A DNA stretch of 57,272 nucleotides from Eubacteriales bacterium (GTDB lineage Bacteria > Bacillota > Clostridia > Oscillospirales > CAG-272), in assembly GCA_045656985.1 (NCBI GenBank), contig JAZOSH010000025.1:1-57272 (forward strand), read 5' to 3'. The notes beneath the pieces are model-generated. The model was not told the origin of the DNA and made no database searches. It saw nothing but the letters and a program-made list of their open reading frames with translations. The position numbers and the translations under genes were made by a program. Positions 856 to 57,171 of this stretch are shown in pieces. Each line of letters opens with the position of its first letter. Position 1 is the stretch's first letter.

Positions 856-1395
856 ATGAGCGATATCAACGAGATGAATGTCGGCCCGAGATGGTATGTG
901 GCGCACACCTATTCAGGCTATGAAAACAAGGTAAAGGCAAGCCTTGAAAAGATCATCGAAAACCGAAATCTCGGTCATCTTATCTATGACATAAGAATTC
1001 CGGTCGAGATAGTCGTCGAGAAAAACGGCGATGAAGAAAAGGAAACAGAAATAAAGATATTTCCTACCTATGTCTACATCAAAATGACAATGACCGAGGA
1101 GAGCTGGCACGCAGTGCGTAACATCACAGGCGTTACAGGCTTTGTAGGTCCTGGGTCGCGTCCTACGCCTCTTTCAGATGCAGAGGTTGAGGCCCTTAAT
1201 ATTGAGCAGACAAAAAAGGTGGAGCTTTCGTTCAAGGAGGGCGATGCCGTTCAGGTCATCGACGGACTTTTCGAGGGCTTCTTCGGTACAGTACAGTCTA
1301 TTTCCGATGACCTTAAAAAAGTCACGGTCCTCGTTAAAAAGGGTCGCCGTGATATGCCCGTAGAGCTTGACGCAAGCGTCATAAAGCTCGCCTGA
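856..1395 (+). CDS. nusG: Transcription termination/antitermination factor NusG
   Basis: RWYVAHTYSGYENKVK, FPTYV, GVTGFVG and a C-terminal KOW domain. Confidence 0.97.
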   Translation: MSDINEMNVGPRWYVAHTYSGYENKVKASLEKIIENRNLGHLIYDIRIPVEIVVEKNGDEEKETEIKIFPTYVYIKMTMTEESWHAVRNITGVTGFVGPGSRPTPLSDAEVEALNIEQTKKVELSFKEGDAVQVIDGLFEGFFGTVQSISDDLKKVTVLVKKGRRDMPVELDASVIKLA

Positions 1396-6251: not shown

Positions 6252-7196
6252 ATGAAAAAAATAACAGCGATATTACTTGTCCTTCTGCTTTGCGTGCTTC
6301 CGCTGGTCTCGTGTGAGGGCGCAGCAGATGACGGAAAAATAAAAATAGTTTGCTCTATCTTCCCTGTCTACGATTGGGTAAGATGCATTGTGGGTGACGC
6401 CGATGGTGTTGAGGTCAGCCTTCTTGTATCTGACGGAAGCGATCCGCACAGCTACAACGCAGGCGTTGCCGACATTGTGGCGATCTCCTCGTGCGATCTG
6501 CTTGTAACGGTGGGTGGCGACTCTGATGCGTGGATAAATGCCGCGCTCCGCGATGTGCAGAATAAGGAGCTCTCTGTGCTTCGTCTGCTTGATATTCTTG
6601 ACGAACGCGAGCTTGCCTATACCGCCGACAGCGAGCACGAGCACTCTCACACCGAGGGAGAGGACTGCCACCACACACTTGACGAGCATATCTGGCTCTC
6701 ACCAAAGGCGGCGCTTCTCCTCTGCGAGAGCATCTATGAAGCACTCCTTGCACTTGATGCATCAAATGCCGATATATACGGAAAGAATTTTGACGCCTAC
6801 CGTGCCGAGCTTTCCTCACTTGATGCGCTCTACACCGAGCGCGCCGAGACGGCGGACAAGCCCTTCATTTTTGCCGACCGCTTCCCCTTCAAGTACCTGT
6901 TTTGCGACTACTCACTTGACTATATCGCGGCGTTTTCGTCCTGCTCTGCCGATAGCGAGGCAAGCTTTTCGACGGTCATCTCACTTGCAAACGAGATAGG
7001 CGCAAATGGACTTGACAGAATTTTTGTGACCGAGAGTGCGATAGACGGCATTGCTGAGTCTGTTATCTCGGCTTCGGGTCGGGTGTGCGAGATAGTCGCT
7101 ATTGACTCACTGCAGTCGGTCACAGCACGCGAGGCAGAGGACGGCGCATCATATGTTGAAATCATGAAGCAAAACGCAGAGCTGTTATTTGAATAG
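6252..7196 (+). CDS. Zn/Mn ABC transporter substrate-binding lipoprotein (ZnuA/AdcA family)
   Basis: Lipobox LVSC, DPHSY, His-rich loop EHEHSHTEGEDCHH, DEHIWLSP. Confidence 0.9.
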   Translation: MKKITAILLVLLLCVLPLVSCEGAADDGKIKIVCSIFPVYDWVRCIVGDADGVEVSLLVSDGSDPHSYNAGVADIVAISSCDLLVTVGGDSDAWINAALRDVQNKELSVLRLLDILDERELAYTADSEHEHSHTEGEDCHHTLDEHIWLSPKAALLLCESIYEALLALDASNADIYGKNFDAYRAELSSLDALYTERAETADKPFIFADRFPFKYLFCDYSLDYIAAFSSCSADSEASFSTVISLANEIGANGLDRIFVTESAIDGIAESVISASGRVCEIVAIDSLQSVTAREAEDGASYVEIMKQNAELLFE

Positions 7197-7204
7197 GAGC
7201 TACT

Positions 7205-7936
7205 ATGATAAAAATAGAATGTAAAAATGTTGCCCTTGGCTATGAGGGACAAACAGTGACCGAGAACTTGAGCTTCACGGTGACAAGCGGAGACTACCTC
7301 TGCATCGTGGGCGAGAACGGCTCGGGAAAAACAACACTTATGAAGGCTCTTTTACAGAGCATTACTCCCATCTCGGGAGAGATATGCTTTGAGGGGCTCT
7401 CGCGCGGTGAGGTGGGCTATCTTCCCCAGATCTCTCCCGCACAGAATGACTTCCCCGCAAGTGTCCGCGAGGTGGTGCTCTCGGGCTGTCTTTCGGGAAT
7501 GGGGCGCTGCCCCTTTTATTCGGCGCGCGAAAAGGCAAGAGCCAACGAAAATATGGAAAAGCTTGGCATACTTTCTCTTGCGAAGAAGCCCTACCGCGAG
7601 CTTTCGGGCGGTCAGAAGCAGAGAGTTCTGCTTGCCCGCGCGCTCTGTCAGGCACGCAAGCTCTTGCTTCTTGACGAGCCCACAGCAAGTCTTGACCCAC
7701 AGATATCCGCCGATTTCTACTCAATAGTTGAAAAGCTCAACCGCGAGGAGAACATAACCGTTATAATGATATCGCATGATATTCATTCGGCAATGAAATA
7801 TGCGTCACATATTCTGCATGTCGGCAAAACCCCGCTCTTCTTTGGCAAGACGCACGATTACATTCACAGCGGTATCTCGGGCTGCTTCTGCTGCCACGAG
7901 GAGCACGACCACGAGCACGGGGAGGACGAAAAATGA
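7205..7936 (+). CDS. Zn/Mn ABC transporter ATP-binding protein
   Basis: GENGSGKT, LSGGQKQR, LLLDEP; His/Cys-rich tail CFCCHEEHDHEH. Confidence 0.92.
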   Translation: MIKIECKNVALGYEGQTVTENLSFTVTSGDYLCIVGENGSGKTTLMKALLQSITPISGEICFEGLSRGEVGYLPQISPAQNDFPASVREVVLSGCLSGMGRCPFYSAREKARANENMEKLGILSLAKKPYRELSGGQKQRVLLARALCQARKLLLLDEPTASLDPQISADFYSIVEKLNREENITVIMISHDIHSAMKYASHILHVGKTPLFFGKTHDYIHSGISGCFCCHEEHDHEHGEDEK

Positions 7937-8775
7937 GCGAAATGATGATAAAGCTTTACGAATATTTCTCCTATCCCTTCGTGAGAAACGCAATGATAGT
8001 TGGCGTGCTGATAGCGCTCTGCGCCTCGCTTTTTGGCGTAATTCTTGTACTAAAGCGCTTCTCCTTTATCGGTGACGGACTTTCTCATGTCGCCTTTGGA
8101 GCTATGGCGGTGGCTACTGTGCTTGGCATCACCAACGGCGTTGCAGTAGTGCTTCCTGTAACCGTTATATCTGCGATACTTATTCTCAAGGCGGGCGAGA
8201 AGCGCCGTCTTGGCGGTGATGCGGCAATAGCACTTATATCGGTGTCCTCTCTTGCACTTGGATACCTTCTTATGAACATTTTCTCAGCTTCGCCAAATGT
8301 CAGCGGCGATGTCTGCTCTACACTTTTTGGTTCAACCACCATTCTCACCCTCACAAGCCTTGATGTATGGCTTTGTGTTCTGCTTTCGGTGGCGGTGCTT
8401 GCGGCATTTGTGCTGCTTTATAACAAGATATTTGCCGTTACCTTTGATGAGAGCTTTGCAGCGGCAGGCGGACTTCACCCCGAGCTATTCAATCTCGTTA
8501 TTGCAGTGGTGGTCGCCGTTATCATCGTGCTTGCTATGAATCTTGTCGGCTCTCTGCTCATCTCGGCACTCGTTATATTCCCTGCACTTACCGCAATGCG
8601 ACTTTTCAAGAGCTTCCGCGCAGTTATGCTCTGCTCGGCAGTGGTTGCCCTTTTCTCATCGGCAATCGGAATTCTCGTGGCGATCCTTGCCTCTACTCCC
8701 GTCGGTGCGACGATAGTTGGCGTACAGATAGCGGTGTTTGTTCTCTTTTCATTTATAGGAATGTGCAAAAAATAA
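7933..8775 (+). CDS. Zn/Mn ABC transporter permease (ZnuB family)
   Basis: SFIGDGLSHVAF, VGSLLISAL..FP; polytopic membrane protein. Confidence 0.92.
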   Translation: MSEMMIKLYEYFSYPFVRNAMIVGVLIALCASLFGVILVLKRFSFIGDGLSHVAFGAMAVATVLGITNGVAVVLPVTVISAILILKAGEKRRLGGDAAIALISVSSLALGYLLMNIFSASPNVSGDVCSTLFGSTTILTLTSLDVWLCVLLSVAVLAAFVLLYNKIFAVTFDESFAAAGGLHPELFNLVIAVVVAVIIVLAMNLVGSLLISALVIFPALTAMRLFKSFRAVMLCSAVVALFSSAIGILVAILASTPVGATIVGVQIAVFVLFSFIGMCKK

Positions 8776-8849
8776 AGAGAGGAGCCCTGATGCTGTGCAC
8801 TCTTAAGGACAGTTTTCTAAATTGAATAAAATATATTACCTACCGACAG

Positions 8850-8890
8850 AAAAAAGGACAGAAACTATTTTATGTTTTCTGTCCTTTTTT
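8850..8890. terminator. Bidirectional terminator inside the insertion
   Basis: aaaaaaggacagaaa-loop-tttctgtccttttttt-type hairpin just downstream of the small minus-strand ORF. Confidence 0.7.
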
Positions 8891-8899
8891 ATACGATTA

Positions 8900-9100
8900 T
8901 CAAATATAAACTTTACTCACAACAATGTTTTCTTCTTTGTTTTTTGTATCAAATTCAGGGAAACAAAGCAAATAGTAGTCGCACTCGTCACAACAACATT
9001 CAAAGCCTTCTTCTCCGTTACCAAGACAAACCATAGGCTCTCCGGGCGCAAGTTCTACGCCGGTAATATCTATTACCCTTTTTTGAGTATTCTTGCTCAT
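8900..9100 (-). CDS. Small acidic Cys-rich hypothetical protein (66 aa)
   Basis: ATG at 9100 after a GGGGG RBS; MSKNTQKRVIDITGVELAPGEPMVCLGNGEEGFECCCDECDYYLLCF...; 6 Cys. Confidence 0.7.
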   Translation of the reverse strand: MSKNTQKRVIDITGVELAPGEPMVCLGNGEEGFECCCDECDYYLLCFPEFDTKNKEENIVVSKVYI

Positions 9101-9119
9101 ATATCCCCCATCTGCATAT

Positions 9120-9329
9120 AAAAAAGGTGCGTAACCGAAGCCACGCACCGAAAACCGCAAACTCCGATTGCTGCTACACAAACTAAATTAGAATTAGGGC
9201 ATTTACCATAACCATTTAGTAGAGCTTGCGATTTTACCAAGTTCAAAAATAGTTATGGCAAAAAAAGGGTATAAATATGCCTATAAAGACAAAAATACCA
9301 CCAATTCTAATATTCAGTTTGTGTAGCAT
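9120..9329 (-). ncRNA. Candidate structured ncRNA or attenuator leader (about 205 nt)
   Basis: Promoter TTGATT (9362-9357)-17-TGnTATAAT (9339-9334). A long stem starts at the predicted 5' end (9327 pairs with 9173), an inner hairpin follows, then a C(UUCG)G terminator with a U6 tract (9149-9120). Confidence 0.6.
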
Positions 9330-9564
9330 ACTTATTATATCACATGCTTTGATAAAAATCAAGCAACTTTAAAGAAAACCTTAAACTTAAAACGCACCTT
9401 ACGGAAGAGCAAGAATTATATCATCATTTATCCTGATAAGCACAGCATCTGTGGACACAAATCAAAAATACGGCACCCCTCTTTCGAGATATACCATATC
9501 TTGCAAAACTGTCCTTTAGAGGAGCCCTTATGGGCTTCTCTTTTTTGCCGATGGCGCGTTATCC

Positions 9565-9593
9565 TTGACTTTGAGGCGCGTATATGGTATAAT
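9565..9593 (+). promoter_or_regulatory. Sigma-A promoter of the ymdB-mrnC-cyclophilin genes
   Basis: TTGACT-17-TGG-TATAAT. Confidence 0.75.
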
Positions 9594-9645
9594 CTTCTTG
9601 CGGAGCTGCCGACCGCAAGAATTTTTTGGCAATAGAAAGAAAAAA

Positions 9646-21907: not shown

Positions 21908-21984
21908 CTGCCCGTGGCACAGCTGGATAGCGCGCAAGACTCCGACTCTTGAGGTCGCAGGTTCAAATCCTGTCGGGCAGGCCA
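21908..21984 (+). tRNA. tRNA-Arg (anticodon CCG)
   Basis: Cloverleaf with acceptor CTGCCCG/CGGGCAG, anticodon loop CT-CCG-AC, T-loop TTCAAAT, encoded CCA, A20 and G73; one A-C mismatch in the D-stem. Confidence 0.92.
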
Positions 21985-56802: not shown

Positions 56803-57171
56803 GGGCCCGTAAAGGTTTCGACGGGGATTTTGAGGTATGATAAGCGAGTAGAGCCGGATAATCTCTTAAAACTGTCTAACTTTAAAATTAAACGCTAACA
56901 ATAACGTAGCAATGGCTGCCTAAGGGCAGTGCCGCGGCTTATTAGCCGCCCGTTCATCCCTGGAGTATCGCGGCCAGGCCTCGAGCGTCAAGTAAGCGGT
57001 GAACGTGCGGTCGTCTTTCGCCATTGAACGAGCCACGCATAAAATGGCTACCCAAAGAAGAAGCCTGTCTGTCGGCGGCTTCCGCGGGGAATTTTAAACG
57101 ATAGACTGCACTCGGAGAAGGTTATATCAAGAGGTTTTCGGACACGGGTTCGACTCCCGTCGGGTCCACCA
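56803..57171 (+). ncRNA. ssrA: tmRNA; tag reading frame ANNNVAMAA* at 56894-56923
   Basis: Acceptor GGGCCCG/CGGGTCC-A-CCA with the G3-U Ala determinant, GGTTTCGAC 5' motif, T-arm GGTTCGACTCC; directly after smpB. Confidence 0.95.

What the first reader, a model, noticed from the sequence alone, without database searches (positions are those of the whole stretch)
9120..9362. Unassigned ~205-nt long-hairpin RNA with its own promoter and terminator
Seen (minus strand): a near-consensus promoter puts the start at about 9329-9327, exactly where a ~32-bp interrupted stem begins (GCTACACAAACTGAA..TTAGAATTGG.GGTATTT pairing with AAATGCC.CTAATTCTAA.TTTAGTTTGTGTAGC). Inside it are a one-sided ~30-nt U-rich bulge, a second ~15-bp helix (TTGCCATAACTATTT/AAATGGTTATGGTAA) and an apical hairpin. 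A C(UUCG)G terminator with U6 follows, just before the RBS of the Cys-rich ORF. G-U pairs and bulges argue for RNA structure rather than a recent DNA palindrome. The layout superficially recalls retron a1/a2-msr-msd, but no reverse transcriptase is present. Inference: a new sRNA, or an attenuator controlling the small ORF.
Basis: partly seen in the sequence, partly recalled or inferred. Interest (0 to 1): 0.62.

Follow-up and report, generated by a model that had tools for sequence, protein, structure and literature searches.

The report
Multi-copy terminator-switch leader RNA family
The flagged hairpin is real: it is one copy of a large, uncatalogued family of about 160-210-nt leader RNAs in gut Clostridia that appear to decide, through three competing helices, whether transcription stops or runs on into the gene behind them; what flips the switch is unknown.

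Summary
Observation confirmed. On the minus strand there is a near-consensus extended -10 promoter (9362-9334). It is followed by a 155-nt rod-like hairpin (9327-9173; fold z = -9.8), a 23-nt tail, a cUUCGg terminator with U6 (9149-9120), and the RBS and ATG of a 66-aa Cys-rich ORF 19 nt later.

It is not a singleton. A covariance model finds 4 copies in this genome and hits in 87 of 151 genomes of the same family. It also hits 19 of 30 sampled families of the order and other Clostridia, with up to 14 copies per genome. Rfam 15 has no match.

Covariation supports the rod and three mutually exclusive pairings:
- apical hairpin;
- apical-loop strand with the tail (long-range pseudoknot);
- tail with the terminator loop and 3' arm (antiterminator).

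G-U pairs outnumber A-C about 15:1, so this is RNA on this strand. In 159 of 183 leaders an RBS-led ORF follows directly. These ORFs fall into 88 unrelated clusters, mostly membrane or exported proteins.

Best reading: a default-off, cis-acting transcription attenuator with an unknown trigger. Rejected: 6S RNA, retron, type I toxin, DNA palindrome, c-di-GMP sensing, and the Cys-rich protein as regulator.

This scan has flagged the same family before on other DNA.

The parts
9357..9362 (-). -35 hexamer TTGATT
   Evidence: Promoter scan. In the family the -35 at 17-nt spacing is mostly TTTACA or TTGACA.
9334..9342 (-). Extended -10, TGaTATAAT
   Evidence: In 150 of 177 family members a TAnAAT box ends 6-7 nt before the first stem base, and 139 carry the TG extension.
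9327..9328 (-). Predicted transcription start, at or 1 nt before the first base of the closing stem (G 9327)
   Evidence: Inferred from the fixed promoter-to-stem distance across the family. No 5'-end data are available.
9294..9327 (-). Outer helix, 5' strand (RNA positions 1-34; GCUACACAAACUGAAUA... conserved)
   Evidence: MFE fold. Pairs covary: column 3/320 is CG 65, GC 22, UA 19; column 5/318 is CG 52, AU 51.
9261..9293 (-). One-sided 33-nt hinge bulge with a mini-hairpin and U-run. Family consensus gGnauanUaUaccyUUUUu; this copy reads GGCAUAUUUAUACCCUUUUUUU.
   Evidence: Present in long-form members only. It sits near mid-rod.
9247..9260 (-). Inner helix, 5' strand (positions 68-81)
   Evidence: The sequence is variable in relatives but still pairs.
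9222..9244 (-). Apical hairpin GAACUUG-GUAAAAUCG-CAAGCUC, containing the conserved loop uUuGruAAAA
   Evidence: Weak on its own at -2.1 kcal/mol. 7 pairs, 85.5% paired, all with changes on both sides in the family.
9221..9230 (-). Loop-side strand of the long-range pseudoknot, CGCAAGCUCU (positions 98-107). It overlaps the 3' arm of the apical hairpin.
   Evidence: Pairs with the tail over 10 bp, duplex -16.2 kcal/mol. Family: 92.6-99.4% paired, 9 of 10 pairs with double changes. Own versus permuted partners z = -10.7.
9204..9217 (-). Inner helix, 3' strand (positions 111-124)
9173..9203 (-). Outer helix, 3' strand (positions 125-155; ...UUUAGUUUGUGUAGC)
9150..9172 (-). Conserved single-stranded tail AGCAAUCGGAGUUUGCGGUUUUC. 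GGAGUUUGCG (9165-9156) is the pseudoknot strand. AAUCGGAGUU (9169-9160) is the antiterminator 5' strand.
   Evidence: Most conserved block of the family. Alternative pairings.
9126..9149 (-). Intrinsic terminator hairpin GGUGCGUGGC-UUCG-GUUACGCACC. GGCUUCGGUU (9142-9133) is also the antiterminator 3' strand.
   Evidence: Terminator alone -15.9 kcal/mol, antiterminator hairpin -12.1. Tail:terminator complementarity, own versus permuted, z = -9.3. Compensatory CAAUC:GGUUG, CUAUC:GGUAG and CGACC:GGUCG.
9120..9125 (-). U6 tract of the terminator
9104..9109 (-). Shine-Dalgarno-like GGGGGA of the downstream ORF
   Evidence: Read from the sequence. The ATG lies 19 nt after the U-tract.
8900..9100 (-). 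66-aa Cys-rich ORF (MSKNTQKRVIDITGVELAPGEP...CLGNGE..FECCCDECDYYLLCFPEFD). This is the gene controlled by this copy of the leader.
   Evidence: No Pfam or NCBIfam match. Conserved family; wherever the neighbouring RNA coordinates were listed the ORF lies directly behind a leader. Found in 15 of 151 family genomes, all of which carry the leader.
8852..8892 (-). A-tract / hairpin / U-tract (GGACAGAAA...UUUCUGUCC UUUUUU) ending the small transcription unit
   Evidence: Read from the sequence. Not called by the terminator scan because its loop exceeds 8 nt.

Best explanation
The stretch is the promoter plus 5' leader of the small Cys-rich ORF. It is one member of a large family of cis-acting transcription-attenuation leaders of Clostridia.

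Proposed mechanism:
1. A strong sigma-A-type promoter starts the transcript at the base of a long rod-like hairpin.
2. The rod has a hinge bulge near its middle. In the short forms it has a large U-rich loop instead. Either would let the apical loop fold back to the base of the rod, where the conserved tail emerges.
3. OFF state: the tail (GGAGUUUGCG) invades the weak apical hairpin and pairs with its 3' strand (CGCAAGCUCU). This long-range pseudoknot acts as an anti-antiterminator. With the tail held there, the cUUCGg terminator forms and transcription ends at U6, giving a 208-nt RNA.
4. ON state: if the pseudoknot is prevented, the tail (AAUCGGAGUU) pairs with the terminator loop and 3' arm (GGCUUCGGUU). 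This antiterminator lets RNA polymerase read into the ORF, which has no promoter of its own.
5. Energetics put the default at OFF. An unidentified signal must therefore favour ON.

Shown here: the elements, their conservation, the covariation of all helices, and the cis arrangement.
Inferred: the direction of regulation, the fold-back geometry and the existence of a trigger. The trigger could be a small molecule or ion, an unrecognised RNA-binding protein, or a trans RNA.
For: Structure and chance:
- Fold z = -9.8.

Family:
- 4 copies in this genome.
- 87 of 151 genomes of the family, up to 13 copies per genome.
- 19 of 30 sampled families of the order.
- 36 of 150 genomes across the class, up to 14 copies.
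- At least 119 loci in gut or rumen Clostridia MAGs share the exact tail.

Covariation:
- Rod, pseudoknot and terminator: 95.4% of cells paired and 35 of 36 pairs with double changes. 0 of 500 shuffles reached this. Slid controls gave 35-53% paired.
- Apical hairpin and antiterminator: 92.2% paired.
- Loop:tail duplex energy, own -13.4 versus permuted -11.2 kcal/mol, z = -10.7, 0 of 2000 permutations.
- Tail:terminator, own -11.9 versus permuted -10.2 kcal/mol, z = -9.3.
- Full compensations are visible. Examples: GUACAAGUUCC with GGGGCUUGUAC; CGCAGACUUC with GAAGUCUGUG; CUAUC with GGUAG; CGACC with GGUCG.

RNA strand:
- G-U versus A-C counts are 332:22 in rod plus terminator, 147:21 in the pseudoknot and 331:53 in the antiterminator.

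Cis layout:
- The -10 box ends 6-7 nt before the stem in 150 of 177 leaders.
- An RBS-led same-strand ORF follows in 159 of 183 leaders, and within 40 nt in 129.

This copy:
- Pseudoknot duplex -16.2, apical hairpin -2.1, terminator -15.9, antiterminator hairpin -12.1 kcal/mol.
- Whole fold -81.8, against -75.7 with the antiterminator forced.

Geometry:
- The outer-helix 3' strand has a median of 30 nt. The distance from the loop A-run to the hinge has a median of 31 nt.
Against: - There are no transcript data of any kind.
- The antiterminator rests mostly on one-sided changes. Only 4 of its 11 pairs show changes on both sides. It is also about 6 kcal/mol less stable than the terminator state.
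- The downstream genes are functionally incoherent, with 88 clusters. That is unusual for a metabolite riboswitch and gives no clue to the signal.
- The expression platform is more conserved than the supposed sensor. This is the reverse of typical riboswitches.
- H1 and H2 lengths do not co-vary positively (rho = -0.48). The fold-back geometry is therefore only consistent with the data, not demonstrated.
- My permutation tests treat related sequences as independent, so the z-scores overstate significance.
Confidence: 0.7

Rival explanations
1. Stand-alone trans-acting small RNA. The 208-nt terminated species would be the functional product, for example a sponge or a base-pairing regulator, possibly acting on the other copies of the family. 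The downstream ORF would be expressed only by incidental read-through. A dual role, both leader and sRNA, is possible.
For: - Own strong promoter and efficient-looking terminator.
- Default-OFF energetics imply the short RNA would accumulate.
- Multi-copy with conserved single-stranded blocks, as in multi-copy sRNA families.
- 24 of 183 copies had no called ORF behind them, though many of these sit at contig ends.
Against: - 159 of 183 copies have an RBS-led ORF on the same strand right after the U-tract, with no room for a promoter.
- The terminator loop and 3' arm covary with the tail. That has no purpose if termination is constitutive.
- Hfq was not found in this genome.
Confidence: 0.14
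2. Classical metabolite- or ion-binding riboswitch. The rod, hinge and apical loop would form an aptamer whose ligand controls the pseudoknot. This is a sub-case of the best explanation that names the type of trigger.
For: - Conserved unpaired blocks: hinge gGnauanUaUaccyUUUUu and loop uUuGruAAAA.
- A terminator / antiterminator / anti-antiterminator platform like those of S-box-type riboswitches.
- Multi-copy regulons with heterogeneous genes are known for second-messenger and ion riboswitches (established knowledge).
- Known antiterminator and RNA-chaperone protein families (CsrA, Hfq, CAT_RBD, a second NusG) were not found in this genome.
Against: - The short forms lack the hinge block altogether yet keep the switch.
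- The sensor region is less conserved than the platform.
- The gene set points to no metabolite.
- c-di-GMP is excluded: 61 of 87 leader-carrying genomes, including this one and a 13-copy genome, have no GGDEF domain.
Confidence: 0.3
3. DNA-level element. Options are a palindromic mobile-element end, a MITE, an integron-attC-like recombination site or a cassette boundary, with the RNA fold being incidental.
For: - Multi-copy.
- The leader-ORF unit in this window is flanked by about 100-nt repeats that occur many times in the genus.
- Tandem leader-ORF arrays occur in relatives.
Against: - G-U tolerated about 15 times more often than A-C on the transcribed strand.
- Promoter at a fixed distance.
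- Constant orientation relative to the downstream ORF (47).
- Covariation of the tail with two non-palindromic partners.
- No plasmid hits and only 2-3 phage-contig hits.
Confidence: 0.03
4. A housekeeping rod-shaped RNA such as 6S RNA, or a retron msr-msd RNA whose reverse transcriptase lies elsewhere.
For: - Rod of about 155 nt with a large internal bulge.
- RF00013 (6S) finds nothing in this genome.
- The closing inverted repeat superficially resembles retron a1/a2.
Against: - 4 to 14 copies per genome, each in front of a gene.
- The bulge is one-sided, not a two-sided central bubble.
- Relatives carry a separate single 6S-like locus as well as the leader, for example G202, G204 and G206.
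- No RF00013 hit here even at E<=10.
- No RT-sized ORF next to this or the other own-genome copies.
Confidence: 0.02

Closest known systems
Terminator / antiterminator / anti-antiterminator leaders of Firmicutes (S-box/SAM-I-type riboswitch expression platforms; PyrR-controlled pyr leaders of Bacillus subtilis)
   Same: Three mutually exclusive helices in series. An upstream element captures the 5' strand of the antiterminator, so that an intrinsic terminator forms just before the RBS. The leader has its own sigma-A promoter. The family is multi-copy within a genome.
   Different: - Here the anti-antiterminator is a long-range pseudoknot between the apical loop of a rod of about 155 nt and a tail 3' of the rod, not a local P1 helix.
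- The platform sequence is more conserved than the sensor.
- No ligand or protein is known.
- The controlled genes are functionally unrelated.
- There is no Rfam match.
T-box leaders (RF00230)
   Same: A long, sequence-variable but structurally conserved rod upstream of a highly conserved antiterminator/terminator block. Many copies per genome. Transcription attenuation in Firmicutes.
   Different: - No RF00230 match.
- The UGGN-like motif in the loop is not invariant: UGAU occurs in a sizeable minority of copies.
- The genes are not aminoacyl-tRNA synthetase or amino-acid genes.
- No specifier-loop or K-turn features were recognised.
c-di-GMP riboswitches (GEMM-I/II) of Clostridia
   Same: A multi-copy leader in front of heterogeneous surface, membrane and unknown-function genes, usually with terminator platforms.
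   Different: - No sequence or structure match in Rfam.
- 61 of 87 genomes with the leader lack any GGDEF cyclase, including this genome. c-di-GMP therefore cannot be the signal.
6S RNA (RF00013)
   Same: Rod-like RNA of about 160-200 nt with a large internal unpaired region.
   Different: Multi-copy, cis-linked to genes, with a one-sided bulge. A separate 6S-like locus exists in relatives. No model match.

Membership tests
Any Rfam 15 family | Match to a curated covariance model at the gathering score | tested here: not met
   No hit on this locus in the whole-window scan. Nothing meaningful at E<=10 on 8850-9600. No hit on 10 diverse family members from this and other orders.
Terminator/antiterminator attenuation leader (kind, not a sequence family) | Intrinsic terminator between the promoter and the RBS of the regulated gene, with no separate promoter for the gene | tested here: met
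   Terminator 9149-9120 and ATG 19 nt later. No other minus-strand promoter-like site. The same layout occurs in 159 of 183 members.
Terminator/antiterminator attenuation leader (kind, not a sequence family) | Conserved alternative helix that sequesters part of the terminator | tested here: met
   Tail AAUCGGAGUU pairs with GGCUUCGGUU, 85-92% paired across the family. Compensatory A-U to U-A or G-C at column 326/393. Own versus permuted z = -9.3. Support is weaker than for the other helices because most changes are one-sided.
Terminator/antiterminator attenuation leader (kind, not a sequence family) | Anti-antiterminator competing for the antiterminator strand | tested here: met
   Loop CGCAAGCUCU with tail GGAGUUUGCG: 92.6-99.4% paired, 9 of 10 pairs with double changes, z = -10.7.
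Terminator/antiterminator attenuation leader (kind, not a sequence family) | Condition-dependent termination versus read-through in vivo or in vitro | not testable with these tools
No wet-lab data.
Metabolite/ion riboswitch | Direct, selective ligand binding by a conserved aptamer | not testable with these tools
   Conserved unpaired blocks exist, but binding cannot be assayed here.
Metabolite/ion riboswitch | Regulated genes share a pathway or transport function that points to the ligand | tested here: not met
   88 unrelated ORF clusters. About 55% are membrane or exported proteins of unknown function.
c-di-GMP riboswitch | The host makes c-di-GMP (GGDEF diguanylate cyclase present) | tested here: not met
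   No PF00990 match in this genome, and none in 61 of 87 leader-positive genomes.
6S RNA | RF00013 match; single housekeeping locus; two-sided central bubble | tested here: not met
Retron msr-msd | Adjacent retron reverse transcriptase gene | tested here: not met
   The neighbours are the 66-aa ORF, znuB-like and ymdB-like genes. The other own-genome copies precede small membrane or zinc-ribbon genes.
Type I toxin mRNA (hok/fst-like) | Conserved small hydrophobic ORF inside the folded RNA | tested here: not met
   The 28-codon frame MLHKLNIRIGGIFVFIGIFIPFFCHNYF of this copy reads VPNKFNSRISGIFSLWDNCTLFSP in the paralogue. Its start codon is not conserved across members.
T-box leader | RF00230 match; invariant UGGN; aaRS or amino-acid genes downstream | tested here: not met
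Protein-dependent antitermination by known factors (CsrA, Hfq, BglG/LicT CAT_RBD, LoaP-type NusG paralogue, ANTAR) | The factor is encoded in a genome that carries the leader | tested here: inconclusive
   CsrA, Hfq and CAT_RBD were not found, and only one NusG is present in this 94%-complete genome. The ANTAR search rang in no control genome, so it is uninformative.

The most novel reading that the evidence does not exclude
The family is a new riboswitch-like sensor class, or the cis part of a new RNA- or protein-based antitermination system. It would respond to one global signal. It would co-regulate, in each genome, a set of 4-14 otherwise unrelated surface, membrane and small Cys-rich or zinc-ribbon proteins across much of the gut Clostridia. 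It would use an unusual fold-back rod whose apical loop captures the antiterminator strand by toehold invasion.
Probability: 0.35. Interest if true: 0.8.

Novelty: new variant of a known kind. Interest (0 to 1): 0.6.

Why it matters
If the model holds, hundreds to thousands of accessory envelope genes in uncultivated gut and rumen Clostridia share one undescribed regulatory input. The gene set includes lipoproteins, small membrane proteins, zinc-ribbon proteins and a sharply conserved Cys-rich mini-protein.

Identifying the trigger would define a new regulon in organisms with almost no genetics. It could also add an orphan riboswitch or antitermination class.

The family would give a compact, portable promoter-leader module for synthetic control in Firmicutes. 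It is large, diverse and covaries well, so it is ready for Rfam submission and for structure probing.

For genome annotation, it explains many 'empty' intergenic gaps of 250-300 bp.

Tried and rejected
1. 6S RNA. RF00013 finds nothing here, but relatives have a separate 6S-like locus plus the leader. Rejected.
2. Type I toxin peptide inside the hairpin. The frame is not conserved in the paralogue and the start codon is not conserved. Rejected.
3. The Cys-rich 66-aa protein as the family's autoregulated RNA-binding factor. It is found in only 15 of 151 genomes against 87 with the leader. Rejected as a general regulator.
4. c-di-GMP as ligand. GGDEF is absent from 61 of 87 leader-positive genomes. 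Rejected.
5. Known RNA-binding regulators. CsrA, Hfq and CAT_RBD were not found and there is no second NusG. The ANTAR test was uninformative.
6. tRNA acceptor-end pairing to the loop UGGU, as in T-box leaders. The GG is not invariant. Rejected.
7. Positive co-variation of the two rod arm lengths, as a test of the fold-back geometry. Not found: rho = -0.48, and only the medians match.
8. Interior-versus-tail duplex test over the whole 120-nt interior. Too noisy: for non-consensus tails, own and consensus tail were equal. Replaced by the loop-restricted test.
9. Empty-site test for the 8778-9532 'cassette'. The znuB and ymdB flanks are not syntenic in congeners, so no empty site could be built.
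10. AlphaFold2 model of the Cys-rich protein. pLDDT 44, unusable, so no fold search was run.
12. Literature. Three full-text searches and one paper look-up found no description of this family. This is a limited search, not proof of absence.
13. Metal-stress idea. Nothing supports it beyond the neighbouring znu genes in this one locus.
Full report
**1. The observation**

On the minus strand the window reads, in order:
- TTGATT (9362-9357), 17 nt, then TGaTATAAT (9342-9334).
- Six bases further on, G 9327 opens a long hairpin that closes at 9173.
- A 23-nt tail (9172-9150).
- The hairpin GGUGCGUGGC-UUCG-GUUACGCACC (9149-9126) and U6 (9125-9120).
- GGGGGA, then the ATG (9100) of a 66-codon Cys-rich ORF that ends at 8900.

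The 211 nt from 9330 to 9120 fold at -82.5 kcal/mol. Dinucleotide shuffles give -43.2 +/- 4.0, so z = -9.8, and none of 200 shuffles folded as well.

- a 31-pair interrupted outer helix;
- a one-sided 33-nt U-rich bulge on the 5' strand;
- a 14-bp inner helix;
- a small apical hairpin.

**2. It is a family, not a singleton**

BLAST against the window's own genome found a second copy at 80% identity, with obvious compensatory changes in the outer stem.

A DNA search of 200 genomes of the same taxonomic family found full-length matches in many genera. It also found many matches to only the last 60 nt or so. Reading those loci showed that every '3'-only' hit also has a promoter, a divergent rod and the same tail and terminator.

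I aligned 23 copies (A1) and built covariance model R1. It finds:

| Scope | Result |
|---|---|
| This genome | 4 copies: two long forms of about 210 nt, two short forms of 129 and 170 nt |
| Same family | 87 of 151 genomes, up to 13 copies in a 1.3-Mb genome |
| Same order | 53 of 151 genomes, in 19 of 30 families |
| Rest of the class | 36 of 150 genomes, up to 14 copies |

The exact 22-nt tail pattern occurs in at least 119 contigs of the species-representative genome collection. Nearly all are MAGs labelled Oscillospiraceae, Acutalibacteraceae, Eubacteriales or Clostridia, from ruminant, rabbit and human guts.

Rfam 15 gives no match:
- on this locus at gathering score;
- on this locus at E<=10;
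- on ten diverse members.

Three full-text literature searches and one look-up found no description.

Earlier notes of this same scan had flagged the same family on other DNA and read it the same way. I saw these only after forming my own reading, and I do not count them as evidence.

**3. Architecture and covariation**

The long-form consensus, from 72 sequences chosen by the model rather than by the tail pattern, has these blocks in order:
- GCcAnACaAanunAAUA
- variable helix
- gGnauanUaUaccyUUUUu (hinge)
- variable helix
- aauUuGruAAAAnyGCaanuycc (apical element)
- variable 3' strands
- uUuGUnUgGC
- raCaAUyGGaGUuuGCGUUUUU
- ngGuGcG..CUuCGGU..gCrC, then the U-tract

Short forms of about 155-190 nt lack the hinge and inner helix. 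They carry the GGUAAAAAyGCAnnCUCc block in a large U-rich loop.

On the 108-sequence alignment A3:
- The rod, the mini-hairpin of the hinge, the terminator and a loop:tail pseudoknot together have 95.4% of cells paired.
- 35 of 36 pairs show changes on both sides.
- None of 500 column shuffles reaches any of the five measures.
- Sliding the 3' partners by 1-3 columns drops pairing to 35-53%.
- Example columns: 3/320 is CG 65, GC 22, UA 19; 5/318 is CG 52, AU 51.

G-U and U-G pairs versus A-C and C-A juxtapositions:

| Helices | G-U / U-G | A-C / C-A |
|---|---|---|
| Rod plus terminator | 332 | 22 |
| Pseudoknot | 147 | 21 |
| Antiterminator | 331 | 53 |

The structure is therefore selected in RNA transcribed from this strand, not as a DNA palindrome.

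**4. Three competing helices**

(a) Apical hairpin.
- In this copy GAACUUG pairs with CAAGCUC.
- It is weak here, at -2.1 kcal/mol.
- It still covaries: 7 pairs, all with double changes.

(b) Loop:tail pseudoknot.
- The 3' strand of the apical hairpin, plus three loop bases (CGCAAGCUCU, 9230-9221), is complementary to the tail (GGAGUUUGCG, 9165-9156).
- This is 10 bp at -16.2 kcal/mol.
- Across the family the pairing is 92.6-99.4% intact, with double changes in 9 of 10 pairs.
- Whole-segment compensations occur. Examples: GUACAAGUUCC with GGGGCUUGUAC; CGCAGACUUC with GAAGUCUGUG; ACGCU..CUCC with GGAG..AGCGU.
- I also ran an alignment-free test. Each loop binds its own tail at a mean of -13.4 kcal/mol, against -11.2 +/- 0.2 for permuted partners. 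z = -10.7, and 0 of 2000 permutations matched it.

(c) Tail:terminator antiterminator.
- The tail's 5' part (AAUCGGAGUU, 9169-9160) is complementary to the terminator loop and the top of its 3' arm (GGCUUCGGUU, 9142-9133).
- Family-wide this pairing is 85-92% intact.
- It has matched variants CAAUC:GGUUG, CUAUC:GGUAG, CGACC:GGUCG and GGAA:UU(U/A)C.
- Own versus permuted energy is -11.9 against -10.2 kcal/mol, z = -9.3.
- This pairing explains why the terminator's loop and 3' arm are nearly invariant while its 5' arm varies (GG, GA or AA opposite a constant UU).
- Support is weaker than for (b), because most changes are one-sided.

Helices (a) and (b) share a strand. Helices (b) and (c) share the GGAG(UU) of the tail. 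Helix (c) and the terminator share CUUCGGUU. This is the logic of an anti-antiterminator / antiterminator / terminator chain.

**5. Cis arrangement**

- In 150 of 177 members a TAnAAT box ends 6-7 nt before the first stem base, and 139 have the TG extension.
- In 159 of 183 distinct members an RBS-preceded ORF starts on the same strand within 150 nt of the U-tract. In 129 it starts within 40 nt.
- In this window the gap is 19 nt, and no other promoter-like site precedes the ORF.
- The ORFs fall into 88 clusters. By a crude classification, about 55% are lipoproteins, signal-anchored or multi-pass membrane proteins. Many have zinc ribbons or SHOCT tails.
- The largest cluster, 21-23 members, is the Cys-rich mini-protein of this window.
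- The two short-form copies in this genome precede paralogous 2-TM proteins.

**6. How it most likely works**

Energetics of this copy:
- rod plus terminator, -81.8 kcal/mol;
- same with the antiterminator forced, -75.7 kcal/mol;
- pseudoknot, -16.2 kcal/mol, replacing a -2.1 kcal/mol hairpin.

The default is therefore pseudoknot plus terminator, which is OFF. The three loop bases that pair with the tail's GCG offer a toehold for strand invasion.

For the tail to reach the loop, the rod must fold back. In long forms the hinge lies about mid-rod. The median is 30 nt of outer 3' strand against 31 nt from the loop A-run to the hinge. This is compatible with fold-back but does not prove it, since the arm lengths do not co-vary positively. 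In short forms the loop block is tethered by U-rich linkers.

Read-through then needs something that blocks the pseudoknot. Candidates are a ligand or protein on the loop or the hinge, or a trans RNA. The freed tail would then pair with the terminator.

Shown: the elements, the covariation and the layout. Inferred: the direction of the switch, the geometry and the existence of a trigger.

**7. What the trigger is not**

- c-di-GMP. No GGDEF domain in this genome, nor in 61 of 87 leader-positive genomes, and no positive association.
- The Cys-rich protein. It is present in 15 of 151 genomes. All 15 carry the leader, and wherever the neighbouring RNA coordinates were listed the ORF sits directly behind a leader. 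It is absent from the other 72 leader-positive genomes.
- CsrA, Hfq and BglG/LicT-type CAT domains were not found in this 94%-complete genome, and there is only one NusG.
- The ANTAR test was uninformative because its control failed.
- tRNA-end pairing as in T-box leaders is unlikely, because the loop GG is not invariant.

**8. Rivals**

- 6S RNA. Rejected. The element is multi-copy and cis-linked with a one-sided bulge. Relatives carry a separate single 6S-like locus in addition to the leader.
- Retron. Rejected. No reverse transcriptase lies next to any own-genome copy.
- Type I toxin. Rejected. The in-hairpin frame is not conserved.
- DNA element. Rejected on the G-U asymmetry, the fixed promoter and the constant orientation. 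However, the unit here is flanked by repeats that are common in the genus.
- Phage and plasmid. Links are marginal: two unannotated faecal 'Bacteriophage sp.' contigs, one IMG/VR contig and no plasmid.
- Trans-acting sRNA. A role for the terminated 208-nt RNA remains possible alongside the cis role.

**9. Limits**

- Alignments A2 and A3 were fitted to the model's structure, which favours that structure. The pseudoknot and antiterminator were not in the model, and they were also tested without any alignment.
- Related sequences are not independent, so z-scores and shuffle counts overstate significance.
- The literature search was limited to the held library.

**10. Verdict**

The finding is real. 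It belongs to a widespread, uncatalogued family of leader RNAs. These are best read as default-off transcription attenuators with an unusual long-range loop:tail anti-antiterminator.

It is a new variant of a known kind of regulation. The signal is unknown, and that is the open and interesting question.

Noticed in passing
window 9423-9530 (minus strand); also G000:C22:1925-2022 (L002 about 1190-1290): A repeat of about 100 nt lies 95-200 nt upstream of both long-form leaders of this genome. It contains a terminator-like hairpin ACGGUAUAUCUC-GAAA-GAGGxxUGCCGU plus U-run, a second hairpin, and a palindrome TT(G/A)TCA-N7-TGA(T/C)(G/A)A. It occurs many times per genome in congeners at 80-88% identity. 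It lies upstream of 16 of 165 leaders, many of them those preceding the Cys-rich ORF. It folds better on this strand (-31.2 versus -18.7 kcal/mol).
   Followed up: partly
window 8794-8890 and 9503-9541: The leader-ORF unit is bracketed by related sequence in inverted orientation (GAGGAGCCC...AAGGACAGTTTT at both ends). The segment 8794-8890 is itself a repeat found in several congeners. No empty site could be found, because the znuB and ymdB flanks are not syntenic in the genus.
   Followed up: partly
window 8900-9100 (minus strand): The Cys-rich mini-protein family (VIDITG(V/I)ELxPGxPxxCLGNGExxFECCCDECDYxLLCFPEFD) is sharply conserved. It has no Pfam or NCBIfam match. In the family sample, wherever the neighbouring RNA coordinates were listed, it sits directly behind a leader. 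The AlphaFold2 model was unusable (pLDDT 44).
   Followed up: partly
G000:C10:3287-3415 and G000:C2:21055-21224 (L035, L036): The two short-form leaders of this genome precede paralogous small 2-TM proteins (MDRMYQEIGKKIK... and MFESWYADIGKKIK...). They have weak sub-threshold SLATT-like matches and C-terminal zinc-ribbon-like or SHOCT-like tails. The C10 copy looks degenerate: its loop block is missing and its antiterminator is weakened.
   Followed up: partly
whole genome G000: No 6S RNA (RF00013) match anywhere in this 94%-complete assembly. Congeners give only weak sub-threshold hits of 27-38 bits at one locus each. Other families of the order score above threshold. 6S in this genus is either very divergent or unassembled here.
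   Followed up: partly
L041 (G008:C68), L037 (G149:C30), L257 (G149:C125), L254 (G021:C69): Tandem arrays of two or three leader-plus-small-ORF units occur in relatives. One leader in L041 is followed only by a truncated remnant of the Cys-rich ORF.
   Followed up: no
window 9243-9329 (minus strand): A 28-codon hydrophobic frame (MLHKLNIRIGGIFVFIGIFIPFFCHNYF) starts at the predicted transcript 5' end and runs through the U-rich bulge. It is not conserved in the paralogue, so it is probably a by-product of the U-rich sequence.
   Followed up: yes
window 56803-57171 (+) and 21908-21981 (+); window 889-1197 (+): A tmRNA (158.7 bits) and a tRNA were the only Rfam gathering-level hits in the window. 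The genome's single NusG gene also lies in this window.
   Followed up: no
window 6252-8775 (+): A ZnuA/ZnuC/ZnuB-like ABC transporter operon converges on the Cys-rich ORF. This adjacency is specific to this locus and is not a feature of the leader family.
   Followed up: partly
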